Shown here: positions 24,989 through 50,652 of the stretch, one piece after another | How positions within the stretch are numbered: position 1 is the first letter of the stretch | Layout: the number at the start of each line of letters is the position of its first letter | DNA from: an uncultured Chloroflexia bacterium | Lineage (GTDB): Bacteria; Chloroflexota; Limnocylindria; Limnocylindrales; CSP1-4 | Direction of reading: 5' to 3' | Length of the DNA: 64,000 bases | NCBI GenBank assembly: GCA_963746845.1 | Contig: CAVVCZ010000005.1 | Span: forward strand, 256,001 to 320,000 | Translations under genes and position numbers: made by a program | Notes under the pieces: model-generated | Database searches by the model: none | The model's input: only the letters and a program-made list of their open reading frames with translations | What the model was told of the DNA's origin: nothing

Positions 24989-25992
24989 CGCTGCACAGGC
25001 CGCGCGACGATCGGCGTCCGCAGCGCGCCGAGGCCGTCGACTCGAAGGACGACCTCGTCGCCGGGCTCGAGATAGCGGCCGAGGGTGGCGTCCTTGACCT
25101 CGAGCAGGCACCCGGTCCCGACGGTCCCCGATCCGAGCAGGTCGCCCGGTCGGAGACGAACGTCGGCCGACGCGCGCGCGACCATCTGGCCGAACGAGAA
25201 CTGCGCGTCCGACCAGCGTCCACGCGAAGTCTCGGCCCCGTTGACGGTCGCGGTCATCGCCAGGTCCGGGCCGCTCGCGCCCGCGGCGCGCGCGCGAACC
25301 AGCTCATCCGGGGTCACGAGCCACGGCCCGATCGTCGAGGCGAAGTCCTTGCCCTTCGCCGGGCCCAGCCTGACGGCGGTCTCCTCGCGCTGGAGGTCAC
25401 GCGCCGACCAGTCGTTGAGGATCGTGTACCCGCCGATCGCCTCCTCGCCCCGCTCGGGGGACAGGTCGACCGCGGGCGTGTCGATCACGGCCGCGACCTC
25501 CAGCTCGTAGTCGAGCTCGGCCGAGCCGGCCGGAGCCCAGACCGGATCGTCCGGGCCGCGGATCTCTGACACGTTGCTGAAGTAGAAGATCGGCAGCCGG
25601 TACCACGTCTCCGGCACCTCGCCGCCGCGTCGCTCCCACATCGTCCGTACGTGCCTCTCGAACGCGTAGAAGTCGCGCAGGCTCGGGGGTCGGAGGATCG
25701 GCGGACCGAACGCGAGGTCCGCCGCGTCGAGGACCGCATCGTCGTCCTCCCGTGGCACGAAGCCATCGACGAGCTCGCCGATGGCCTCCACGCGCAGCCC
25801 GCGCGCGAGGTGGTCGTCCAGCGTCGTCACGGGCTGGCGATGCAGGACGCGGTCGTGGGCGAGGTTGCGGTCGGCGGCGATGGCCCGTCGGCGAGCGATA
25901 TCGAGGTCGACCCAGCCGTCGTCGAGCGCCGCGACCAGCCGCCACGGAGCCCCCGACGGGGCACGGAGGTCCCGGACGTGAGCGAGCTTCAT
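24985..25992 (-). CDS. Fumarylacetoacetate hydrolase family protein
   Basis: RDFYAFERH, DYELE, NDWSARD, KGKDF and GSGT motifs. Confidence 0.9.
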   Translation of the reverse strand: MKLAHVRDLRAPSGAPWRLVAALDDGWVDLDIARRRAIAADRNLAHDRVLHRQPVTTLDDHLARGLRVEAIGELVDGFVPREDDDAVLDAADLAFGPPILRPPSLRDFYAFERHVRTMWERRGGEVPETWYRLPIFYFSNVSEIRGPDDPVWAPAGSAELDYELEVAAVIDTPAVDLSPERGEEAIGGYTILNDWSARDLQREETAVRLGPAKGKDFASTIGPWLVTPDELVRARAAGASGPDLAMTATVNGAETSRGRWSDAQFSFGQMVARASADVRLRPGDLLGSGTVGTGCLLEVKDATLGRYLEPGDEVVLRVDGLGALRTPIVARPVQR

Positions 25993-26111
25993 GGGCGGGT
26001 GACGGTGGGCAGGATCACCGCCCGAGTGTAAGGTCGCCCATCCCTCGTCGACGGGTCCTGCGTCGAACGGGGGATGACAGGATGGGTCGATCGGTGCCAG
26101 CCTGTGCCGTC

Positions 26112-28571
26112 ATGACCCCTTCGCCGCCCCATCGGCCGGTCCCGGCGGACCCGTCGCCGGCCGTTGCCACGCCCGGAGCCTCGATCCTCGTCGGGCTCGT
26201 CCGCCTGATCGGGGTCGTCGCGATCGTGATCGGGCTCCTCGAGGGCCTCGCCGGGATCACCTACCGCGAGCCGCGGGCGGTCCTGCTCGGGCTGACGGCC
26301 ACGACCTACGGGATCTGGGTCGCCTCACGGGCCGGCGGCCTGACCGGCCCGCAGCGCGAGTCGACGATCACCCGGATCGCCGTGCTGACCCTCGCCTTGA
26401 TCGGCCTGGCGGCGACCCTTCAGCCGTCGATGGCCACGGCGATGGCGATCGCGTCCCTCCTGCCGGCGGTCATCGTCACTCCGCTCGTCTCGAGCCGGAC
26501 CGTCCTCCGCCTCCTGATCGCCAGCGGGGTCGTCGGGGCCTGGAGCGTCTTCGTCGGTGCCCTGCTGCCGGACCCGAACCGGCTGCCCCTCACGGCGCAG
26601 ACGGCGTTCGCGTTCGTGACGCTCGTCCTCGCCTACACCTTCCTGATCATGTTCCTGTGGGAGGTCAGCCGACGCCTGAAGGACACCGCGGCGGACCTCC
26701 GCAGCGTCATCGCGATGTCCGGCGACCTGGCCCAGTCGCTCGACCCGCGCCTGGTCGGCGACCGGATCGCCGTCCACATCGCCCGCGCGGTCGGCGCCGA
26801 CGATTGCGCGCTGAGCTACTGGGACCGGACGACGAACCGGGTCGTGACCCTCGGCTACGAACCGCCGGAGCGGCGCGGCGCCCTGAACGAGACGTACGCC
26901 GTCGATGACTACCCGGCGACGCGCGAGGTGCTCGAGACGCAGCGCCCGACGCGGATCGACGTCGACGACAAGACCGCCGACCCGGCCGAGGTGCGCTACC
27001 TGGCGGAGATCGGCCATCGCTCGATGGCGATGGTGCCGCTCGTCGCTGCCGGCCGAACGGTCGGCTTGATCGAGGTGACGGCCGCGCGACGCCGGGCGTT
27101 CGGCGACCGCGCCGTCGAGCTCGCGACGATGCTCGCGGGCGAGGCGGCGATGGCCCTCGAGAACGCCCGCCTGTACGACCAGATCCGGCACCAGGCCCTT
27201 CACGACGGGCTGACCGGGCTCGCGAACCGCGTCCTGTTCCGCGACCGGGTCGAGCACGCGGTCGAGCGCAGCCGGCGCGCCGGCGGCCAGCTGGCGCTGC
27301 TCTTCATCGACCTCGACGACTTCAAGACCCTCAACGACACCCACGGCCATGCCCGCGGCGACGACGTGCTCTCGACGGTCTCGGGCCGCCTGCTCGGCGT
27401 GCTGCGGCCGGTCGACACGGCCGCGCGTCTGGGCGGCGACGAGTTCGCGGTGCTCCTCGAGGACGTGACCAGCGAGGCCGATGCGTTGGCGGTCGCGACG
27501 CGGATCGCCGAGTCGTTCCGTCAGCCCCTCCTCTTCGACGACGTGCCGATCCGCGTCGCCGCGAGCATCGGCGTCGCGATCGGGCGTGGACCCGAGACCG
27601 CCGACGACCTGCTCCGCAACGCGGACGTCGCGATGTACGCGGCGAAGCAGTCGTCCCGCGGCGGAGCCGAGATCTTCCGGCCGAGCCTCCGCGACGGCGC
27701 CGCCGAGCGGGCGGCCCGGGCGGAGCGCCTCCGCGGCGTCGAGCAGCGCGACGAGCTCCGGCTCGACTTCCAGCCGATCGTCGACCTGGCGACGACGGCC
27801 ATCGTCGCGGTGGAGGCGCTCGTGCGCTGGCAGCCGCCGGACGGCCCGGTGCTCATGCCGGGTGAGTGGATCGACCTTGCCGAGGAGAGCGGAGACATCG
27901 TCCCGATCGGACGCTGGATCCTGCGCGAGGCGTGCCGCCAGGCCCGCGACTGGCAGATCCGCCTCGACCGCCCGGATCTCCGCGTCAGCGTGAACCTGTC
28001 CGCCCGCCAGTTCGCCGAGCACGACATCCTCGCGACGGTCCGGACCGTCCTCGACGAGACGGGCCTGCCGCCGGCCAGCCTGATCCTCGAGATCACGGAG
28101 AGCGGACTGATGCGCCGCACGGCGTCCACGATCGCGCGGCTGTCCGAGCTCCGCGAGCTGGGCTGCCATCTCGCGATCGACGACTTCGGGACCGGCTACT
28201 CGTCATTGAGCTACCTCGAGCGCTTCCCGATCGACATCCTGAAGATCGACCGGACCTTCGTGTCGTCGACCGGTGCCGGCGCATCGCCGATCGCCCGGGC
28301 CGTCATCGACCTGGGTCGGACGCTCCACCTCGAGGTCATCGCCGAGGGGATCGAACACGCCGAGCAGGCCCGCTGGCTGGCCGACCTCGGGTGCCGCTAC
28401 GGCCAGGGCTTCCTGTACGCCCGACCGGTGAGCGCCGCGGCGCTCGAGGCGCTGCTCGCCGAGGGCGCGGGGCTCGCCGGTCCGACCGACGGCCAGGCCG
28501 GCGGCACCCGCGGCGGCGAACCCGATCGGGAGGCGCCGCGGCTGCGGCTGGTCAGCGGAGACGACCGCTAG
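26112..28571 (+). CDS. Membrane-bound GAF-GGDEF-EAL diguanylate cyclase/phosphodiesterase
   Basis: About 6 TM helices, GAF domain, intact GGDEF, EAL and DDFGTGYSSL. Confidence 0.93.
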   Translation: MTPSPPHRPVPADPSPAVATPGASILVGLVRLIGVVAIVIGLLEGLAGITYREPRAVLLGLTATTYGIWVASRAGGLTGPQRESTITRIAVLTLALIGLAATLQPSMATAMAIASLLPAVIVTPLVSSRTVLRLLIASGVVGAWSVFVGALLPDPNRLPLTAQTAFAFVTLVLAYTFLIMFLWEVSRRLKDTAADLRSVIAMSGDLAQSLDPRLVGDRIAVHIARAVGADDCALSYWDRTTNRVVTLGYEPPERRGALNETYAVDDYPATREVLETQRPTRIDVDDKTADPAEVRYLAEIGHRSMAMVPLVAAGRTVGLIEVTAARRRAFGDRAVELATMLAGEAAMALENARLYDQIRHQALHDGLTGLANRVLFRDRVEHAVERSRRAGGQLALLFIDLDDFKTLNDTHGHARGDDVLSTVSGRLLGVLRPVDTAARLGGDEFAVLLEDVTSEADALAVATRIAESFRQPLLFDDVPIRVAASIGVAIGRGPETADDLLRNADVAMYAAKQSSRGGAEIFRPSLRDGAAERAARAERLRGVEQRDELRLDFQPIVDLATTAIVAVEALVRWQPPDGPVLMPGEWIDLAEESGDIVPIGRWILREACRQARDWQIRLDRPDLRVSVNLSARQFAEHDILATVRTVLDETGLPPASLILEITESGLMRRTASTIARLSELRELGCHLAIDDFGTGYSSLSYLERFPIDILKIDRTFVSSTGAGASPIARAVIDLGRTLHLEVIAEGIEHAEQARWLADLGCRYGQGFLYARPVSAAALEALLAEGAGLAGPTDGQAGGTRGGEPDREAPRLRLVSGDDR

Positions 28572-31357: not shown

Positions 31358-31456
31358 ATGCAGAAGGTCAAGTCGCTGGGGTTCAGGATCGTATTGGTCC
31401 TGTCCGCGCTTGCCAGCTCGGCACTCGTGCTCGAAGCCGGCCAGCGCTGGCGCTGA
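31358..31456 (+). CDS. Small peptide MQKVKSLGFRIVLVLSALASSALVLEAGQRWR (32 aa)
   Basis: AAGGAGG RBS; signal-peptide shape; shares EAGQRW with 44846-44947; absent from the ORF track. Confidence 0.8.
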   Translation: MQKVKSLGFRIVLVLSALASSALVLEAGQRWR

Positions 31457-43106: not shown

Positions 43107-44045
43107 ATGACCGCGTCGAGCCCGACCGCGCCGCCACCATCGGCCGGCCCCGGAGTCGCTGCGATCCCGGCGGCGGCCGGGCGACGACGCCTGCTCATCG
43201 GGCTGTACCGGCGTCCGCGGATCGTCCTGGGCCTGCTCCTGACGCCGCCGGTCGGGTGGTTCGGTGTCGTCTATCTCGGCTCGCTGGCCCTGCTGCTCGT
43301 GTCGGCCTTCTGGACGTTCGACAGCGCCTCGGGCAAGGTCCTGCCCCAGTTCACGCTGGACAACTTCCGGCAGCTCCTCGAGCAGCCCGCCTTCCGGACC
43401 GTGACGCTCCGGACCGTCGGTTTCGCGATCGGCGTCACGATCGCGGACATGCTGATCGCCTTCCCGATCGCCTACTACATGGCGCGGGCGGCGGGTCCGC
43501 GGACGCGTTCTGTCCTGTTCATGCTCTGTCTGCTGCCCTTGGGGGCGAGCTATCTCGTTCGCGTCTTTGCCTGGCGCGTCATCCTCGCACCGAACGGTCC
43601 ACTCGACTGGTTCCTCGCCTTCTTCGGGCTCGGGCCGACCGGTCTGTATCCGTCCGATCTCGGCGCCGGCATCGTCCTCACCTACGTCTGGCTGCCGTAC
43701 ATGATCCTGCCGCTCTACGCGGGGCTCGAGCGAGTGCCGCACTCCCTGCTCGAAGCGAGCGCCGACCTTGGCGGCCGGGGCGTCATGACCTTCCGCCGCG
43801 TCACGTTTCCCCTCATCCTCCCGTCGCTGGTCGCGGGCTCGATCTTCACTTTCTCATTGACCCTCGGCGACTACATCACGCCGAGCCTGCTCTCGAAGAA
43901 CCAGTTCATCGGCAATGTGATCTTCGAGCAGCAGGGCGTCGCGGGGAACGTTCCGCTGGCGGCCGCCTACACCTTCGTCCCGATCGTGATCATGGGGATC
44001 TACCTCACCGTCGCCCGTCGGCTCGGCGCGTTCGAGGCGCTGTGA
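43107..44045 (+). CDS. Polyamine ABC permease (PotB-like)
   Basis: SYLVRVFAW; EASADLG EAA loop. Confidence 0.9.
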   Translation: MTASSPTAPPPSAGPGVAAIPAAAGRRRLLIGLYRRPRIVLGLLLTPPVGWFGVVYLGSLALLLVSAFWTFDSASGKVLPQFTLDNFRQLLEQPAFRTVTLRTVGFAIGVTIADMLIAFPIAYYMARAAGPRTRSVLFMLCLLPLGASYLVRVFAWRVILAPNGPLDWFLAFFGLGPTGLYPSDLGAGIVLTYVWLPYMILPLYAGLERVPHSLLEASADLGGRGVMTFRRVTFPLILPSLVAGSIFTFSLTLGDYITPSLLSKNQFIGNVIFEQQGVAGNVPLAAAYTFVPIVIMGIYLTVARRLGAFEAL

Positions 44046-44833
44046 TGGGCCGCTGGCTGCTCCGGATCGCGACGGCGGGCGTCCTCGCCTTCCTGTACAT
44101 CCCGATCTTCATCATCGCCCTGTATGCGTTCAACGCCCAGCGGGTCCAGGTCTGGCCGATCAAGGAGTTCAGCACCGAGTGGTTCGCGGTCACGTTCCAG
44201 AACGAGTCCGTCCGCGCGGCGCTCCTGCTCTCGCTCGAGGTGGCGGTGCTCGCGAGCCTCGTGGCCGTGATCCTCGGGTCACTCACCGCGTTCGCGATCC
44301 ACCGGTTCCACTTCTTCGGCCGAACCTCGCTGAGCCTGCTGCTCGTCCTCCCGATCGCGCTGCCGGGCATCGTCACGGGCCTCGCGCTGAACGCGACCTT
44401 CCGGACGACGGGCATCGGGTTCTCGACCCTCACGATCGTCATCGGGCACGCCACGTTCTGCATCGTCGTCGTCTACAACAACGTGATCGCCCGTCTGCGG
44501 CGGACCTCACGGAACATCGAGGAGGCGTCCATGGATCTGGGCGCCGATAGCGCCCAGACGTTCCGCTACATCACGTTCCCGGTCGTGCGAACCGCTCTGT
44601 TCGCCGGGGCATTGCTGGCGTTCGCTCTGTCGTTCGACGAGATCGTCGTCACGACCTTCACCGCGGGCGCACAGGAAACCGTGCCGATCTGGATCTACGA
44701 TCGGATCCTTCATCAGCCGAACCAGCGGCCGCTGGTGAACGTCGTCGCGCTCGTGCTGATCCTGCTCTCGACGATCCCGGTCTACATCGCGTCGCGCCTG
44801 ACCACGGGGACGACCGCCGCCGGTCGCACCTGA
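44045..44833 (+). CDS. Polyamine ABC permease (PotC-like)
   Basis: FLYIPI; EEASMDLGA; LSFDE. Confidence 0.9.
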   Translation: MGRWLLRIATAGVLAFLYIPIFIIALYAFNAQRVQVWPIKEFSTEWFAVTFQNESVRAALLLSLEVAVLASLVAVILGSLTAFAIHRFHFFGRTSLSLLLVLPIALPGIVTGLALNATFRTTGIGFSTLTIVIGHATFCIVVVYNNVIARLRRTSRNIEEASMDLGADSAQTFRYITFPVVRTALFAGALLAFALSFDEIVVTTFTAGAQETVPIWIYDRILHQPNQRPLVNVVALVLILLSTIPVYIASRLTTGTTAAGRT

Positions 44834-44845
44834 TCCGACGATGGG

Positions 44846-44947
44846 TCAGTGGCCCCAGCGCTGACCGGCCTCCGCGGCGAGGGCGATCGCGGCGACGATC
44901 GCGAGGGGCAGCGCGACCCGCGCGGCGGTGGTAATCCGGCTGAGCAT
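44846..44947 (-). CDS. Small peptide MLSRITTAARVALPLAIVAAIALAAEAGQRWGH (33 aa)
   Basis: GGAGGAG RBS; signal-peptide shape; shares EAGQRW with 31358-31456; absent from the ORF track. Confidence 0.8.
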   Translation of the reverse strand: MLSRITTAARVALPLAIVAAIALAAEAGQRWGH

Positions 44948-45065
44948 CTCGATGACTCCTCCGGCCGAGGCCGGCCTTCCGGCGTCGAACCCCTTCGAGG
45001 AGTGCCCGGTCCAGGAACGCCATGGCCAGTCTGGCCGACGACGCTTATCCGGCGGTCACCGGTGC

Positions 45066-45236
45066 CTACATCGCGGGCTCGTACTCCGGGTCCAGGAACC
45101 GCTCCGGGTCGTCCCGGAACTCGAGGTAGCAGCCGCGGCCGCAGAACCAGTACGTGGTCCCATCGTGCTCGATCTTGAGGTCGGTCGTCGTGGTGTCGAC
45201 GTCCATCCCGCAGACCGGATCCTTCTCGATCGTCAT
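45066..45236 (-). CDS. YHS/TRASH domain protein (56 aa)
   Basis: DPVCGM...YWFCGRGC..EF..DPERF. Confidence 0.9.
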   Translation of the reverse strand: MTIEKDPVCGMDVDTTTTDLKIEHDGTTYWFCGRGCYLEFRDDPERFLDPEYEPAM

Positions 45237-45255
45237 GTGGACAACTCCCGCTGGG

Positions 45256-45270
45256 TACTCCCGGGGAGTA
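45256..45270. promoter_or_regulatory. Second CsoR-like operator
   Basis: TACTCCC-G-GGGAGTA followed by TA; matches the copA operator at 13/15 positions. Confidence 0.75.
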
Positions 45271-45293
45271 TATCGGACAGGTACCATTCCGCC

Positions 45294-45632
45294 GTGCCCG
45301 AGCCCCGTTCCGCCGCCCGTGTCGCCCTGGTCGCCGAGCGTGACCGGCTGCGCGCCGAGGTGGCCGAGGGGATCGTCGCCCCGGGGCCGATGACCTACGG
45401 GTCGCAGGCGGCCGCCGCCAGCCAGGTCTTCGAGCAGCAGCGCGACCTCGCGTTGCGCGAGCGGAACGAGCACCAGCTCGTCGCCGTCGAGGCGGCCATC
45501 GAGCGGCTGGACGACGGGACGTACGGAACCTGCGCTCGGTGCGGAGGGCCGATCGCACCCGAGCGTCTCGAGGCCCTGCCATGGGCCGCCCACTGCATCG
45601 ACTGCCAGCGGATCGTGGGTCGCGGTGGCTGA
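45294..45632 (+). CDS. TraR/DksA C4 zinc-finger protein
   Basis: GTYGTCARCG..I..ERLEALPWA..CIDC; TACCAT lies 6 nt upstream of the GTG. Confidence 0.88.
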   Translation: MPEPRSAARVALVAERDRLRAEVAEGIVAPGPMTYGSQAAAASQVFEQQRDLALRERNEHQLVAVEAAIERLDDGTYGTCARCGGPIAPERLEALPWAAHCIDCQRIVGRGG

Positions 45633-46656
45633 GCTCGCAGCGCGGGCCGCCGGCGCAGCCACGGCGACGCACCCGCTCGTCACGATCGACGACGTCCGCG
45701 CGGCTGCGGCGACGCTCCGCGGGGTCGCGGCCCGAACGCCGCTCGTCCCGTTCGGGCCGCCGGCCGACCGACGCTTCCTGAAGGCCGAGTCGCTCCAGCC
45801 GATCGGCGCGTTCAAGATCCGCGGCGCCTATGTGGCGGTGGCATCGCTCTCGGTGGCGGAACGCGCGCGCGGCGTCATCACGTACTCCTCCGGCAATCAC
45901 GCCCAGGGTGTGGCCCGGGCGGCGCGGCTGCTCGGCGCTCCGGCCGTCGTCGTCATGCCATCCGACGCACCGGCCCTGAAGCGAGCCCGCGTGGAGGCCG
46001 ACGGCGCGGAGGTCGTCGTCGTCGGGCCGTCGAGCGACGAGCGGCGCGTCGTCGCCGAGCGGATCGCCGCCGAGCGCGGCCTCGTGATCATCCCGCCGTT
46101 CGACGACGACCGGATCATCGCCGGACAGGGCACCGTCGGGCTGGAGATCGCCGAGGACCTGCCGGACGTGGCGGCGGTCCTCGTGCCGATCGGCGGCGGC
46201 GGGCTGGCGAGCGGGATCGCCGTCGCGGTCAAGGCGCTCGTGCCGGGCGCGCGGGTGATCGGCGTCGAGCCCGAGCTGGCCGCCGACGCGCGGCAGTCGC
46301 TCCGCGAGGGCCGTGTGGTCCGCTGGGCGGCCGCCGACGTCTCGCGGACGATCGCCGACGGGACCCGGACGACCGCGATCGGCGAGCGCAACTTCGCCCA
46401 CCTGTCCGCGCTCCTCGACGACATCGTGACCGTCACGGAGGACGAGATCGCGGCGGCGGTGCGGCTCACCGCCGAGGAGAGTCGGCTCGTCGTGGAGCCG
46501 TCCGGCGCGCTCTCGGTCGCCGCCATGGCGTTCCACTCGGCCGAAGCCGGCCTGGCCGGCGTCGACGGCCCGGTCGTCGCGGTGATCTCGGGCGGCAACG
46601 TGGATCCCGAGCGTTACCGCGCCTTCCTCGAGGCGCCGATCCCGCCGCGCGGCTGA
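45625..46656 (+). CDS. Threonine/serine dehydratase (no regulatory domain)
   Basis: AFKIRGA, SSGNHAQG, GGGGL and SGGN motifs. Confidence 0.92.
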   Translation: MAELAARAAGAATATHPLVTIDDVRAAAATLRGVAARTPLVPFGPPADRRFLKAESLQPIGAFKIRGAYVAVASLSVAERARGVITYSSGNHAQGVARAARLLGAPAVVVMPSDAPALKRARVEADGAEVVVVGPSSDERRVVAERIAAERGLVIIPPFDDDRIIAGQGTVGLEIAEDLPDVAAVLVPIGGGGLASGIAVAVKALVPGARVIGVEPELAADARQSLREGRVVRWAAADVSRTIADGTRTTAIGERNFAHLSALLDDIVTVTEDEIAAAVRLTAEESRLVVEPSGALSVAAMAFHSAEAGLAGVDGPVVAVISGGNVDPERYRAFLEAPIPPRG

Positions 46657-46671: not shown

Positions 46672-47703
46672 CTAGGGGCGCGCCTCCCGCTCCGCCGCCA
46701 TCCGCTCCGCCAGCTGGGCCTCACGGACCCGGATCGCGGCCCGCTCCGTATCGACCCGCCGGTCGACCGCCGCCTCCTCCCGTTTCTCGTGGGCCATCCA
46801 GCCCGCGATGATCGCGGCCATCGCGGACAGGAAGAGGATGTCGCCGCAGATCCACATCAGCCCGCCGGCGAGCTGCTGGTCCTCGAGCGCCGTCGGTCCC
46901 CACGAGCGGGACAGCGTCGCGTAGTGCGTGTACAGCACGACCGCCGAGTTCAGGATCGTCACCGCGAGGAACGTGTTCTGGGGCATCTGCAGGAACACGT
47001 ACATCGCCCGGACCGGGTGGCTCATCCGCCACGGGCTCGGGTCGAGCCCGACGGCCGGCCACCAGAACAGCAGCCCGGCGACGAGGAACAGCAGGTGCTC
47101 GAGATCGTGGATCGCCGGGTTCTCGAGCGCCGCGTCGAACAGCGGCGAGAAGTGGGCCCACCACATGACCCCGGCGAACAGGAGCCACGTCACGACCGGG
47201 AACGTGATCGCCCGCATGACCCGCGAGTGGAGGATCGGGAGGATCACGCGCTGGCGGACGTTGGGGGTCGACACGCGGAGGAGCAGCGTGATCGGCGCAC
47301 CGAGGGCGATCAGCGGCGCGGCGACGAGCGTCAGCAGCAGGTGCTGGGCCATGTGGACCGAGAACAGCGTCGTGTCGTACTGGTCGATCCCGGACATCAG
47401 GGCGAACGCGATCGCGCCGAGCCCGGCCAGGAAGAACACGGATCGACGCCGCGGCACCGGGTTGGCCGGGTGGGCGCGGTTCACCTGGCGGACGAACCGG
47501 ATCCACACGACTGCGGCAACCCCGAGGGTCAGGACGACCGCGGGCTCGAGCGTCCAGCCGAACAGGATGATCGCCGCGCTGGGCGGCTCCGCGGGCACGG
47601 GACCGTGGGCACTCACCGTGCCGGCCGCGCCGGCCGCCGCCGCGACGCCGAGCACGACGGATCGACCGACGGAGCGGAGGGACGGACGGACGATTAGTGG
47701 CAT
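46672..47703 (-). CDS. ctaG: Caa3_CtaG-type cytochrome oxidase assembly protein
   Basis: FSVHMAQHLLL, HDLEH and DQQLAGGLMW motifs. Confidence 0.88.
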   Translation of the reverse strand: MPLIVRPSLRSVGRSVVLGVAAAAGAAGTVSAHGPVPAEPPSAAIILFGWTLEPAVVLTLGVAAVVWIRFVRQVNRAHPANPVPRRRSVFFLAGLGAIAFALMSGIDQYDTTLFSVHMAQHLLLTLVAAPLIALGAPITLLLRVSTPNVRQRVILPILHSRVMRAITFPVVTWLLFAGVMWWAHFSPLFDAALENPAIHDLEHLLFLVAGLLFWWPAVGLDPSPWRMSHPVRAMYVFLQMPQNTFLAVTILNSAVVLYTHYATLSRSWGPTALEDQQLAGGLMWICGDILFLSAMAAIIAGWMAHEKREEAAVDRRVDTERAAIRVREAQLAERMAAEREARP

Positions 47704-47890
47704 CACCGTCATCGTCGCACGCGGTCCGGGAGGGCGCCGCGCCCGTCCATACGCGAAGGCCCATCCCGTTATCATGGCGATGGTCCGGCCGTAGGGGTCG
47801 GACACGGCCGTCCCCGGCCGACTCCGATCTCCACCAGGCGCCGGCTGCCCTCCACGGGTTCGGCGCGCCGACCGAGTTCGAGGACCGTCG

Positions 47891-49012
47891 ATGTCGACCA
47901 CCCCGAGTAGCAGGCCTTCGTCCACGGCGATCGTCGGCTGGCTCGTGGTCGCAGTCATCGGGCTCGCGCTGGCCGCCCTCGTGGTCCTCAACGCCTCCGC
48001 GATCTGGAACAGCTTCTTCCCGCCCGAGGCGAAGAGCGTCCAGGGCCAGGAGATCCGCAACCTCTACGACATCGTCTTCGGCATCGCCGTCGTGATCTTC
48101 GTCGTCGTCGAGGGCCTGATCGTCTGGTCCGTGATCCGTTACCGGCGCAGGCCGGGCGACAACGAGCTCCCGCCGCAGACCCACGGCAACAACCTCGCCG
48201 AGATCACCTGGACGCTGATCCCGACCGTCATCGTCATCTTCCTGTTCATCGTCTCGTGGCAGACGCTGAACAGCGTCGAGGCGGAGTCGTCGCAGCCGAA
48301 CCTGAAGGTCCGCGCGGTGGCCGGCCAGTTCCAGTGGACGTTCGAGTACCTCCCGGCCGACGCCCAGTCCGACACGAAGGCGCTCTTCACGATCACGACG
48401 CCCCAGGGACCGGACGGCGGGCTCACCTTGCCGGCCGGCCAGACGACCCACCTCTATCTCAAGAGCCCCGACGTCATCCACGCGTTCTACGTCCCGCAGT
48501 TCCTGTTCAAGCGGGACGTCGTGCCGGGCGTCACGAACCAGTTCGATCTCGACATCCCCGCGAGCTCCGCCGGCCAGACGTTCCGTGGCCAGTGCGCCGA
48601 GCTGTGCGGGATCGGTCACGCCGGCATGCTGTTCGACGTCCATGCGGTCACGCCGGCCGAGTTCGACGCGTTCATGCAGAAGCAGATCGCGGCCGCCAAC
48701 GCGACGCCGCCGCCGGCGCCGTCCGGGGGCGGTGGACCCTCGATCCCGATCACGGCCGAGGGCATCAAGTTCGACCAGGCGACGCTCACGGCGCCGGCGG
48801 CCGGGTTCACCATCCACTTCGACAACAAGGACGCGGGCACGCCGCACGACTTCGACATCCTCGACGCGTCGGGCAAGAAGGTCTTCGACAGCCAGCCCTT
48901 CCCCGGCGTGGCCGCGAAGGACGAACCCGTTCCCCCGCTGACGGCGGGGAGCTACAAGTTCGAGTGCTCCGTGCACCCGACCCTGATGTTCGGCACGCTC
49001 ACGGTCCAGTAG
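47891..49012 (+). CDS. coxB: Cytochrome c oxidase subunit II with a C-terminal type-1 cupredoxin domain
   Basis: CuA ligands DVIHAF and CAELCGIGHAGM; tail PHDF...CSVHPTLM. Confidence 0.93.
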   Translation: MSTTPSSRPSSTAIVGWLVVAVIGLALAALVVLNASAIWNSFFPPEAKSVQGQEIRNLYDIVFGIAVVIFVVVEGLIVWSVIRYRRRPGDNELPPQTHGNNLAEITWTLIPTVIVIFLFIVSWQTLNSVEAESSQPNLKVRAVAGQFQWTFEYLPADAQSDTKALFTITTPQGPDGGLTLPAGQTTHLYLKSPDVIHAFYVPQFLFKRDVVPGVTNQFDLDIPASSAGQTFRGQCAELCGIGHAGMLFDVHAVTPAEFDAFMQKQIAAANATPPPAPSGGGGPSIPITAEGIKFDQATLTAPAAGFTIHFDNKDAGTPHDFDILDASGKKVFDSQPFPGVAAKDEPVPPLTAGSYKFECSVHPTLMFGTLTVQ

Positions 49013-49020
49013 GGGAGCTC

Positions 49021-50651
<1,631 letters not shown>

Positions 50652-50652
<1 letters not shown>

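What the first reader, a model, noticed from the sequence alone, without database searches (positions are those of the whole stretch)
44846..44947. EAGQRW micro-peptide #2: paralog with a diverged leader but conserved tail
Seen: MLSRITTAARVALPLAIVAAIALAAEAGQRWGH with a GGAGGAG RBS, directly downstream of the YHS gene. The leader differs from #1 but has the same basic/hydrophobic shape and nearly the same length, while EAGQRW is identical and uses some different codons (GAG GCC GGT vs GAA GCC GGC). That pattern suggests selection on the protein. A-E-A is a canonical AxA signal-peptidase site. Inference: a multi-copy family yielding variant mature peptides (GQRWR and GQRWGH). Possible receptors in this window, all unproven, are the TM-GAF-GGDEF-EAL protein and the anti-sigma factors.
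Basis: partly seen in the sequence, partly recalled or inferred. Interest (0 to 1): 0.8.

Follow-up and report, generated by a model that had tools for sequence, protein, structure and literature searches.

The report
Membrane micro-protein family tied to c-di-GMP
This 33-codon gene is real and belongs to an undescribed family of tiny membrane-helix proteins in uncultured soil Chloroflexota; the family's founding pair is switched by a c-di-GMP-sensing RNA and is predicted to slot into a neighbouring membrane protein of unknown function.

Summary
Observation confirmed. The ORF lies on the minus strand (44846..44947), has a GGAGGAG ribosome-binding site and follows a YHS gene.

It is one of four paralogs in this genome. 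The family covers about 30-residue proteins with a basic N-terminus, one membrane helix and an invariant A-G-x-R-W end. It has no Pfam or NCBIfam match. It was found in two families of one class of Chloroflexota, labelled Ca. Limnocylindrales.

There are three subfamilies:
- A and B form a translationally coupled pair.
- In 15 of 15 loci examined, A sits just behind a c-di-GMP-I riboswitch. In 13 of 15 that lies directly after a GAF-GGDEF-EAL / DUF5317 operon.
- C, the copy in the finding, has no riboswitch. It has its own conserved leader hairpin and usually follows YHS.

A co-fold places the B helix and its EAGQRW tail inside DUF5317: score 0.69, best control 0.02.

Best reading: these are membrane micro-subunits or regulators of a DUF5317 / c-di-GMP module, and copy #2 is a differently regulated paralog. 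The secreted-pentapeptide reading is unsupported but not excluded. No RNA run holding the stretch was listed, so expression could not be examined. This scan met the riboswitch-plus-micro-protein arrangement before on other DNA (e1-4466873).

The parts
44846..44947 (-). Micro-protein gene #2 (subfamily C), 33 codons plus stop: short basic N-terminus, one hydrophobic helix with a conserved Pro14, and the tail EAGQRW-GH.
   Evidence: ORF. (profile E 2.8e-15). (15 of 15 orthologs with ATG, a Shine-Dalgarno-like purine run and 31-33 codons; synonymous variation at conserved residues).
44956..44962 (-). Ribosome-binding site GGAGGAG, 8 nt before the ATG.
   Evidence: sequence. A similar purine run stands before all 15 orthologs.
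44981..45021 (-). Conserved leader hairpin GGCGn..GACCGGGCACUCC..GGGGUyCGAnCGCC in the YHS-to-micro-ORF spacer. Its invariant loop is complementary to the ribosome-binding region.
   Evidence: 13 invariant bases; pair 54-92 occurs as AU 4, GC 4, UA 3, CG 2; 7 or more Watson-Crick pairs between loop and RBS region in 11 of 21 loci, against about 4.1 in shuffles; no relevant Rfam match (three unrelated weak hits below gathering score); the single-sequence fold is not better than shuffles (z -1.46).
45066..45236 (-). YHS-domain gene (56 aa) directly upstream of #2 on the same strand.
   Evidence: Pfam YHS E 5.4e-16. YHS lies 116-169 nt upstream in 15 of 15 first-set loci, but in only 3 of 10 further loci.
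45300..45632 (+). DksA/TraR-type zinc-finger gene, divergent from the YHS / micro-ORF unit. It keeps its place where YHS is missing.
   Evidence: zf-dskA_traR E 4.2e-14; the same C-terminal motif is seen next to micro C in L121, L122 and L130, read from the translations.
31358..31456 (+). Micro-protein gene #1 (subfamily B, stand-alone copy), 32 codons plus stop, RBS GAAGGAGGGA.
   Evidence: (E 7.7e-18). Orthologs sit at the same place beside the HPPD-type gene (cluster c4) in L044, L048 and L053. No riboswitch upstream.
25581..28571 (+). GAF-GGDEF-EAL membrane protein: the window's paralog of the enzyme that heads the A/B locus. Given as context only; no direct tie to #1 or #2 is shown. Coordinates are the open frame; the true start was not determined.
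   Evidence: EAL 8.5e-70, GGDEF 2.9e-42, GAF 1e-13. It groups with the enzymes of the A/B loci in cluster c1.

Best explanation
Gene #2 encodes a 33-residue single-pass membrane micro-protein, with the N-terminus inside and the A-G-x-R-W end at the outer face. It belongs to a family confined, as far as searched, to one class of Chloroflexota.

The family's core is a translationally coupled A/B pair. Synthesis of that pair is gated by a c-di-GMP-I riboswitch placed right after a GAF-GGDEF-EAL / DUF5317 operon.

The micro-proteins most likely work as small subunits or regulators. They insert their helix into a groove of the DUF5317 membrane protein, with the conserved tail against DUF5317's invariant loop motifs. 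In this way they would tune a c-di-GMP-linked membrane module.

Copy #2 (subfamily C) kept the helix and tail but exchanged the control region. Instead of the riboswitch it has its own conserved leader hairpin, whose loop can pair with its ribosome-binding site, and it usually rides behind a YHS (metal-binding domain) gene. It would therefore feed a different input, not yet identified, into the same kind of partner.

Shown: the gene is real, the family exists, and the synteny and riboswitch are there.
Predicted: B binds DUF5317.
Inferred: #2 uses the same kind of partner; the topology; the regulatory role.
For: Real gene:
- 15 of 15 C-type orthologs have ATG, a Shine-Dalgarno-like purine run and 31-33 codons (14 of 14 without the unpublished G010).
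- pN is below pS in 98 of 105 pairs.
- Conserved residues show synonymous codon variety.

Family:
- Four copies in the own genome.
- 23 of 24 same-genus genomes have 2-6 matches.
- Family f1 has matches in 118 of 258 genomes, f2 in 0 of 42.
- In the class sample f4 has 25 of 153 and f3 0 of 92.
- The phylum sample gave one weak hit outside the class.
- 230 clusters at 50% identity in 1.84 billion representative proteins reach E <= 0.001. In most of the 150 listed the match ends within a few residues of the C-terminus of the called protein.

c-di-GMP link:
- A riboswitch lies 30-40 nt before A in 15 of 15 A loci.
- DUF5317 lies directly upstream on the same strand in 13 of 15.
- GAF-GGDEF-EAL stands before it.
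- In most tandem pairs B starts within a few to about 20 nt after the stop codon of A.

Partner:
- Co-fold of DUF5317 with B gave a median score of 0.69 against a best control of 0.02. That mark was reached by 58 of 80 solved complexes and 2 of 110 mismatched pairs. Partner pLDDT was at least 76 and the runs shared at least 94% of contacts.
- The interface covers B residues 14-32, which is exactly the conserved stretch. On DUF5317 it includes invariant residues S122-S124, D137, N149, S152, G154 and D155.
- DUF5317 residues 158, 162 and 166 touch B residues 26, 23 and 19. The helices are therefore antiparallel, and the basic N-terminus of B lies on the side of DUF5317's basic C-tail (inference).
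- All 85 micro-protein-positive genomes are DUF5317-positive.
- By my hand count in f4, 18 of 21 genomes with 2 or more DUF5317 matches have the micro-protein, against 7 of 132 others.
- DUF5317 recurs beside c-di-GMP enzymes: the third own copy is fused to an MFS transporter and follows an HD_5 (HD-GYP-type) gene.
Against: - No expression data: no RNA run holding the stretch was listed.
- The co-fold was run for B, not for #2. #2 is only 36-47% identical to A and B and differs at interface positions: S22 of B is Ile in #2, and V25 and L26 are Ala.
- #2 and #1 are not next to any DUF5317 gene and have no riboswitch.
- The co-fold controls were unrelated natural proteins. The output does not say whether they were membrane helices, so generic docking of a hydrophobic helix is not excluded. 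The alignments were my own, so the calibration holds only roughly.
- DUF5317 is far more widespread than the micro-proteins: it is in 60 of 92 f3 genomes, where no micro-protein was found. It does not need them.
- dN/dS of the C subfamily is only moderately low, mostly 0.4-0.9.
- Kin genomes are not independent, so the co-occurrence counts overstate the association.
Confidence: 0.5

Rival explanations
1. Secreted signal. The ORFs are pre-peptides. The helix acts as an export signal, cleavage at or near the invariant A-G bond frees a C-terminal oligopeptide (GxRW plus 0-4 residues), and this acts as an extracellular cue. In one variant DUF5317 itself is the processing or export protein.
For: - The layout is a basic N-region, a hydrophobic core and small residues at -1 and -3 before an invariant A-G.
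- The best-conserved part of subfamily C is the tail; its helix varies more.
- From memory, not from any call: Phr, SHP and PrgQ pheromones of Firmicutes are C-terminal pieces of 20-45-residue precursors.
- The co-fold puts the tail next to DUF5317's invariant polar motifs, including two invariant Asp residues. That could be an active site as well as a docking site.
Against: - In A and B the helix sequence is conserved across genera and across two families, unlike signal peptides (general knowledge).
- Only two residues separate the hydrophobic core from the A-G bond, so there is no usual polar c-region (sequence).
- The residues after W vary in number and kind.
- No peptide transporter or receptor gene is conserved beside the loci.
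- The DUF5317 model resembles no solved protease: 0 PDB matches at E <= 0.001; SPPL2a ranked 19 with E 6.3 and TM 0.13.
Confidence: 0.12
2. Independent small membrane protein unrelated to DUF5317. Copy #2 would serve the YHS protein or local metal handling, for instance as a membrane tether or an accessory of copper delivery to the nearby cytochrome oxidase genes. The shared tail would be only a membrane-interface cap inherited from a common ancestor.
For: - YHS is directly upstream in 15 of 15 first-set loci.
- The Caa3_CtaG assembly gene lies 1.7 kb away, followed by cytochrome oxidase subunit-like ORFs (read by eye).
- #2 has no DUF5317 neighbour.
- Subfamily C has features of its own: Pro14 and a separate leader.
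Against: - In 7 of 10 further C-type loci no YHS gene was found within about 700-800 nt. In at least four of those (L121, L122, L124, L130) micro C keeps its place next to the ABC permease gene. YHS is therefore dispensable.
- The invariant family positions (A22, A27, R30 and W31 of #2; G28 nearly invariant) fall in the stretch that forms the predicted DUF5317 interface in B.
Confidence: 0.2
3. Type-I-toxin-like or pore-forming peptide. The small hydrophobic peptides would depolarise the membrane when induced, with c-di-GMP, or the leader hairpin in the case of #2, keeping them in check.
For: - Size, a single helix, multiple copies and tandem arrangement.
- Tight cis-RNA control of translation.
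- The likeness to Ibs, Ldr and TisB peptides is recalled, not tested.
Against: - Stable synteny with DUF5317 and GGDEF-EAL across two families.
- A conserved small-residue helix face and a specific tail.
- A confident, specific predicted interface with DUF5317.
- I did not search for antisense RNAs, so none is known.
Confidence: 0.08
4. Not a gene: a chance open frame in 72% G+C DNA, or a conserved RNA element read as protein.
For: - Long chance ORFs are common at this G+C content.
- No expression data.
Against: - The start codon, RBS, length and stop position are kept in 15 of 15 orthologs while the nucleotide sequence drifts, with synonymous changes at conserved residues.
- Family-wide profile hits are at E down to 1e-18.
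Confidence: 0.03

Closest known systems
Small single-pass membrane proteins that act as subunits or regulators of larger membrane proteins (KdpF in KdpFABC, CydX in cytochrome bd, MgrB on PhoQ, AcrZ on AcrB, MgtS on MgtA). Examples are recalled, not tested here.
   Same: About 30 residues, one helix, conserved small-residue face. One subfamily is encoded beside its predicted partner. The helix is predicted to be buried against the partner's helices.
   Different: - No sequence relation: Pfam and NCBIfam have no credible match.
- A defining C-terminal A-G-x-R-W cap.
- A/B pair with translational coupling.
- Control by a c-di-GMP riboswitch.
- The partner is DUF5317, a protein of unknown function and unmatched fold.
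- Several paralogs have different control regions.
c-di-GMP-I (GEMM-I) riboswitch regulons, Rfam RF01051 and the variant model RF03167.
   Same: The A/B pair lies behind an aptamer that passes both models: own copy 63.2 bits on RF03167 (cut-off 59) and 60.5 bits on RF01051 (cut-off 35). The own genome has three further copies. Two are before paralogous genes whose products start like secreted proteins (read by eye); the third is before the short ORF and ABC binding-protein gene listed under noticed in passing.
   Different: - The regulated products are two micro-proteins. Three full-text searches found no paper describing this. The variant-riboswitch paper I recalled (PNAS 2017) is not held, so I could not see what it says about downstream genes.
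- Copy #2, the finding itself, has no riboswitch.
- Where the RF03167 consensus has G (ACGCGAAG), all 15 aptamers have the A of RF01051 (ACGCAAAG). The 'GGC' label of the best-scoring model should not be taken as altered ligand specificity.
Peptide pheromone precursors of Firmicutes (Phr, SHP, PrgQ/iCF10, ComS). Recalled, not tested here.
   Same: Short ORFs with a basic and hydrophobic front and a conserved C-terminal end; several copies per genome.
   Different: - The helix is conserved in A and B.
- No RRNPP-type receptor or Opp/PptAB transporter is conserved nearby.
- The lineage is Chloroflexota.
- The peptide is predicted to stay bound inside a membrane protein.
Earlier findings of this scan: e1-4466873 (riboswitch driving two micro-proteins beside GGDEF-EAL/DUF5317 in soil Chloroflexota) and e1-1164643 (paired micro-peptides near DUF5317-like and GGDEF-EAL genes in Actinomycetota).
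   Same: The same arrangement as the A/B locus of this genome, which I reached independently before reading the notes.
   Different: - The finding here concerns a third subfamily without riboswitch, with its own leader and a YHS neighbour.
- The relation to the Actinomycetota peptides was not tested.

Membership tests
The micro-protein family defined here (A/B/C; no public name) | 29-36 residues; basic N-terminus; one hydrophobic helix; invariant A-G-x-[RK]-W followed by 0-4 residues and the stop codon. | tested here: met
   #2 matches the family profile at E 2.8e-15. Invariant columns R10, A22, A27, R30 and W31 are present.
Subfamily A/B of that family (riboswitch-controlled pair) | A c-di-GMP-I aptamer directly upstream, with DUF5317 and GAF-GGDEF-EAL genes before it. 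| tested here: not met
   For #2 there is no c-di-GMP-I match, even at E <= 10, in 44700..45400, and no DUF5317 gene in the 11-kb surroundings. #2 therefore belongs to a separate subfamily C.
Sec-type signal peptide / secreted peptide precursor | Cleavage by signal peptidase after an AxA-like site; a polar c-region of several residues; the h-region free to vary. | tested here: inconclusive
   A small -1/-3 pattern is present. The c-region is only 2 residues, and the h-region is conserved in A and B. No signal-peptide predictor or cleavage assay was available.
Known Pfam / NCBIfam small-protein families | A profile match above the curated cut-off. | tested here: not met
   There were 0 NCBIfam hits at E <= 10. 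The only Pfam hit is PAGK, for #1, at 17.6 bits, below its cut-off of 22.8.
c-di-GMP-I riboswitch (RF01051), for the aptamer before subfamily A | Covariance-model score above the gathering cut-off; core GGCAAACC...GGGACGCAAAGCC. | tested here: met
   The own copy scores 60.5 bits against a cut-off of 35. 14 of 14 further A loci pass a clan model. The core sequence is present in 15 of 15. Ligand binding was not tested.
GxGD intramembrane aspartyl proteases (presenilin / SPP / prepilin peptidase), considered for DUF5317 | The characteristic multi-pass fold with YD and GxGD motifs in membrane helices. | tested here: not met
   DUF5317 has an invariant S-x-G-D and a second invariant Asp. However, its model (pLDDT 80.6) has no PDB match at E <= 0.001; SPPL2a has E 6.3 and TM 0.13.

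The most novel reading that the evidence does not exclude
DUF5317 is a new kind of intramembrane processing or export protein, and the micro-proteins are its substrates. c-di-GMP (for A/B), or another cue acting through the leader hairpin (for #2), would switch on production of pre-peptides. These would dock in DUF5317, be cut at the invariant A-G bond and release GxRW-type oligopeptides as an extracellular signal. This would couple c-di-GMP state to cell-cell signalling in Chloroflexota.
Probability: 0.08. Interest if true: 0.9.

Novelty: new variant of a known kind. Interest (0 to 1): 0.62.

Why it matters
Regulation by small membrane proteins is known from a handful of model bacteria. Here a whole family of them, absent from the curated libraries searched, is wired to the c-di-GMP network of a widespread but uncultured soil lineage.

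- If the predicted docking into DUF5317 holds, it gives a first functional handle on DUF5317. That family was found in 305 of 401 genomes of this class sample, in Thermus and Thermotoga, and repeatedly beside GGDEF-EAL or HD-GYP-type genes.
- It would show micro-proteins as a read-out of a c-di-GMP riboswitch.
- Copy #2 adds that the same helix-and-tail module has been placed under a different, still unidentified control element. That would be a simple way of feeding several inputs into one membrane module.

Tried and rejected
1. The search for homologous proteins refuses queries under 40 aa. I used the representative-protein search and six-frame genome searches instead.
2. Expression: no RNA holder is listed for window 43500-46500. 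There are only six soil or rhizosphere DNA runs with shares of 0.24 or less. I did not lay reads, since DNA contigs cannot show expression.
3. GxGD-protease idea for DUF5317: no fold support.
4. Rfam for the #2 and #1 leaders: only sub-threshold matches taken as chance. One is Guanidine-II at 24.8 bits against a cut-off of 32, inside the YHS ORF.
5. Consensus promoter and terminator scan of 44600..45500: none found.
6. Single-sequence fold of the #2 leader: not better than shuffles (z -1.46), and its minimum-energy fold differs from the alignment consensus. Support for the hairpin rests on covariation at two pairs only.
7. Covariance model of the leader on the own genome: one strong copy, the #2 leader itself at 105 bits. 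There is one weak copy at C6:235289-235386 (33 bits), which shares the 5' block and RBS but lacks the hairpin.
8. ESM Atlas: only unnamed clusters of 31-34 aa, at score 0.88.
9. Fusion test: none of the 150 listed representative hits is a DUF5317-micro-protein fusion. The only hit over 150 aa is an over-extended call that runs through a DinB-like gene.
10. Literature: 'DUF5317' is in 0 papers. 'c-di-GMP-I-GGC' is in 3 papers, seen as a search listing only. A combined search for c-di-GMP riboswitch plus small-protein terms listed no paper holding both. I read passages of PMC7266159, which say nothing on the variant. The PNAS 2017 variant-riboswitch paper is not held.
11. The second riboswitch-linked 31-codon ORF of the own genome was not found in 15 same-genus genomes with a single-protein query. 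I treat it as unconfirmed.
Full report
**1. Observation**

Window 44846..44947 encodes MLSRITTAARVALPLAIVAAIALAAEAGQRWGH. GGAGGAG lies 8 nt before the ATG. A 56-residue YHS-domain gene (45066..45236, minus; Pfam YHS E 5.4e-16) ends 118 nt upstream.

Copy #1 is at 31358..31456 (+). The quoted codon difference in the shared tail is correct. The window has 71.7% G+C, so an open frame alone means little. The case rests on comparison with other copies.

**2. A family, not two copies**

A scan of the whole 3.56-Mb assembly found two more copies. They form a tandem pair at G000:C5:232001-232087 and 231895-231993 on the minus strand, outside the window. A profile of the four finds exactly these four at E 7e-18 to 2.8e-15; the next best place scores E 0.5.

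Six-frame searches gave the following counts:

| Sample | Group | Genomes with a match |
|---|---|---|
| Same genus | g1 | 23 of 24, with 2-6 matches each |
| Order | family f1 | 118 of 258 |
| Order | family f2 (1.1-Mb genomes) | 0 of 42 |
| Class | f1 | 59 of 137 |
| Class | f4 | 25 of 153 |
| Class | f3 | 0 of 92 |
| Class | f2 | 0 of 16 |
| Class | f5 | 0 of 2 |
| Phylum, 401 genomes | outside the class | one weak hit (E 2.1e-4) |

These are samples. 'Not found in those searched' is all that can be said. G254, which is unpublished, is inside the tallies.

In 1.84 billion representative proteins, 230 clusters reach E <= 0.001. In most of the 150 listed the match ends within a few residues of the C-terminus of the called protein. 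The longer ones I read are over-extended gene calls.

Named records with close copies are soil MAGs, mostly labelled Candidatus Limnocylindrales or Chloroflexota, with a few other labels. Pfam and NCBIfam have no family for these proteins.

**3. Three subfamilies**

- **A:** consensus VK.NLARFTWA..LLASMALT.GAG.RW.
- **B:** consensus M.R.LKAQAFR.LL.LSALASSALVLEAGQRW.
- **C:** consensus M..R....AR...P.AI..AIALA.EAGQRW., the type of the finding.

Invariant across all three are an Arg before the helix, two Ala, and the R-W of the tail; the tail Gly is nearly invariant.

Where A and B stand in tandem, A has a strong RBS and usually a GTG start, and in most pairs B begins within a few to about 20 nt after the stop codon of A. 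This is the layout of translational coupling. Copy #1 is a stand-alone B. Its place beside an HPPD-type gene (cluster c4) recurs in three other genomes.

**4. Copy #2 is a real gene**

I collected 15 C-type orthologs: the window plus 14 loci. One of these, L070, is from the unpublished genome G010; without it every count below is 14 of 14.
- All 15 have an ATG start.
- All 15 have a Shine-Dalgarno-like purine run (mostly GGAGGAG or GAGGAG) within 18 nt upstream.
- All 15 have 31-33 codons.
- All 15 have the tail [EQD]A[GA]xRW.

The helix varies but stays hydrophobic, with Pro14 in 11 of 15. Conserved residues are spelled with 3-4 different codons. pN is below pS in 98 of 105 pairs, and the closest pair has dN/dS 0.17. 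Most pairs lie at 0.4-0.9, so constraint is moderate and concentrated in the tail.

**5. What surrounds the family**

I clustered the neighbours of 23 loci and named them with Pfam. Subfamily A lies behind an operon of a GAF-GGDEF-EAL membrane protein of about 900 residues and a DUF5317 protein of about 190 residues.

A DUF5317 profile places that gene directly upstream on the same strand in 13 of 15 A loci. In L057 it lies 1.5 kb away and is in two pieces. In L052 it is on the other strand. One stand-alone B (L051) also follows a DUF5317 gene.

The spacer between DUF5317 and A translated to a recurring 'GQTRREAGTQSQGS' in over-extended gene calls. This turned out to be a c-di-GMP-I riboswitch:
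- The own copy scores 63.2 bits on RF03167 (cut-off 59).
- The same copy scores 60.5 bits on RF01051 (cut-off 35).
- All 14 further A loci tested have one 30-40 nt before the start codon. Thirteen score best on RF03167 and one on RF01051.

At the one core position where the two consensus sequences differ (ACGCGAAG in RF03167, ACGCAAAG in RF01051), all 15 carry the A of the ordinary class. I therefore read them as ordinary c-di-GMP-I aptamers. What the 'GGC' variant binds I cannot say: the paper I recall is not held.

The own genome has four such aptamers. Two stand before paralogous genes whose products start like secreted proteins (read by eye). One stands before a short unconserved ORF and an ABC binding-protein gene. 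One stands before A/B.

**6. Copy #2 has other controls**

No c-di-GMP-I match appears near #2 or #1, even at E <= 10, and no DUF5317 gene is nearby.

Instead, the spacer between YHS and micro C holds a conserved hairpin with 13 invariant bases, GACCGGGCACUCC. One closing pair occurs as AU, GC, UA and CG in different species. The invariant loop is complementary to the ribosome-binding region over 7-9 bases in 11 of 21 loci, against about 4.1 in shuffles.

Support for this structure is modest. Only two pairs covary, and the single-sequence fold is unremarkable. Rfam has nothing like it. In the own genome the full motif occurs only here.

YHS precedes micro C in all 15 first-set loci. In 10 further C-type candidates from other genera and two more same-genus genomes it does so in only 3. 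The leader motif is present in 6 of those 10. In at least four of those 10 (L121, L122, L124, L130) micro C keeps its place next to the ABC permease gene, with a DksA/TraR-type gene on the other side in three of them. YHS is thus a frequent but dispensable neighbour.

**7. Mechanism**

A DUF5317 model is confident (pLDDT 80.6, pTM 0.76). It resembles no solved structure: 0 of the PDB matches have E <= 0.001.

A co-fold of DUF5317 (alignment of 11) with B (alignment of 19) supports binding:
- Median score 0.69; best of three controls 0.02.
- That mark was reached by 58 of 80 solved complexes and 2 of 110 mismatched pairs.
- Partner pLDDT was at least 76, and the runs agreed in at least 94% of contacts.
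- This is the model's confidence, not a measurement. The calibration holds only roughly with my own alignments. The output does not say whether the control proteins were membrane helices.

The interface uses B residues 14-32, which is the conserved SALASSALVLEAGQRW stretch. It touches DUF5317 helices 3-6 and invariant loop residues S122-S124, D137, N149, S152, G154 and D155. The order of contacts (DUF5317 residues 158, 162 and 166 with B residues 26, 23 and 19) makes B antiparallel to the last DUF5317 helix. Its basic N-terminus then lies on the side of DUF5317's basic C-tail. By the positive-inside rule, which is general knowledge, that side is the cytoplasm, so the tail lies at the outer face.

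Co-occurrence agrees with this:
- All 85 positive genomes have DUF5317.
- By my hand count in f4, 18 of 21 genomes with two or more DUF5317 matches have the micro-protein, against 7 of 132 others. Matches are not copy numbers, kin are not independent, and 12 unpublished genomes sit in the denominators.

DUF5317 is much more widespread than the micro-proteins. Its third own copy is fused to an MFS transporter behind an HD_5 (HD-GYP-type) gene.

I therefore read the family as small subunits or regulators of DUF5317 modules that belong to c-di-GMP signalling. A/B would be a c-di-GMP-controlled output, possibly feeding back on the adjacent enzyme. That #2 acts on the same kind of partner is an inference from the shared helix-and-tail module. 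It was not tested, and #2 differs at some interface positions.

**8. Rivals**

- **Secreted pentapeptide.** This reading fits the A-G junction and the tail-centred conservation in subfamily C. It fits poorly with the conserved helices of A and B, the two-residue gap between core and junction, the variable residues after W, and the predicted burial of the tail. I give it 0.12. A variant in which DUF5317 is the processing protein is my most novel reading (0.08).
- **YHS- or metal-specific role.** This is possible (0.2), but YHS is often missing.
- **Toxin-like role.** I give this 0.08.
- **Non-coding reading.** I give this 0.03.

**9. Comparison and novelty**

The closest known kind is the group of small single-pass membrane proteins that bind larger membrane proteins (KdpF, CydX, MgrB, AcrZ, MgtS; recalled). 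There is no sequence membership in any curated family.

The following are not described in the papers I could search:
- the riboswitch control;
- the A/B coupling;
- the A-G-x-R-W cap;
- the DUF5317 partner;
- the differently controlled paralogs.

This scan noted the riboswitch-plus-two-micro-proteins arrangement before in another soil Chloroflexota genome (e1-4466873). It also noted a possibly related pair in Actinomycetota (e1-1164643). I reached the first independently and did not test the second.

**10. Verdict**

The secreted-peptide mechanism is unsupported. This is a new variant of a known kind, of moderate to high interest. It needs expression and interaction experiments.

Noticed in passing
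window 44981..45021 (minus) and the same spacer in L045, L063-L079, L122, L124, L125, L127, L129, L130: A conserved leader element before subfamily-C micro-ORFs, with 13 invariant bases (GACCGGGCACUCC) in a hairpin. One closing pair clearly covaries. The loop is complementary to the ribosome-binding site. It is not in Rfam. It is a candidate translational switch of unknown input.
   Followed up: partly
G000:C5:232202-232260 (minus) and the equivalent place in the 14 other A loci: A short hairpin of the form GAGGG-loop-CCCUCC lies about 10 nt upstream of the c-di-GMP-I aptamer in most loci, read by eye. Its 3' arm looks like an anti-Shine-Dalgarno sequence. It may be part of the expression platform or a 5' stabiliser.
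   Followed up: no
G000:C4:727365-727462 (+) and 727477-727572 (+): Another c-di-GMP-I riboswitch (66.7 bits) is followed by a 31-codon ORF that looks like a bare signal peptide (MSTARPRLVALLRVLVVAVVALAASASARPI) and then by an ABC binding-protein gene. The ORF was not found in 15 same-genus genomes, so it may be spurious or a leader ORF.
   Followed up: partly
G000:C4:602086-602159 (minus) and G000:C5:217387-217461 (minus): Two further c-di-GMP-I riboswitches stand before paralogous genes whose products begin M-F-[RW]-.-GD.WASEPVPPRPRPAHRSH and then a hydrophobic stretch. They are probably secreted or surface proteins. One has a long Thr/Ala/Pro repeat.
   Followed up: no
G000:C1:69393-71543 (L131 1894..4044, +) and L131 811..1704: A DUF5317 domain is fused to the N-terminus of an MFS transporter (717 aa), directly after an HD_5 (HD-GYP-type) gene. 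Frames of about 650-930 aa around DUF5317 matches are common across the class. This is a second link between DUF5317 and c-di-GMP turnover.
   Followed up: partly
window 45104..45144 (minus), inside the YHS ORF: A sub-threshold match to the Guanidine-II (mini-ykkC) riboswitch: 24.8 bits against a cut-off of 32, E 0.0086 for the 701 bases searched. It lies inside coding sequence and is probably chance.
   Followed up: no
L057 2944..3502 (+): The DUF5317 gene upstream of the A-type micro-ORF matches the profile in two overlapping pieces in different frames. This is either a frameshift or an assembly error. It is also the only A locus whose aptamer scores best on RF01051.
   Followed up: no
window 46672..48060 (minus) and 47891..50652 (+): A Caa3_CtaG assembly-factor gene (Pfam) is followed by ORFs that look like cytochrome oxidase subunits II and I (read by eye). 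They lie within 2-6 kb of the YHS / micro-C unit. A copper-related context is possible but untested.
   Followed up: no
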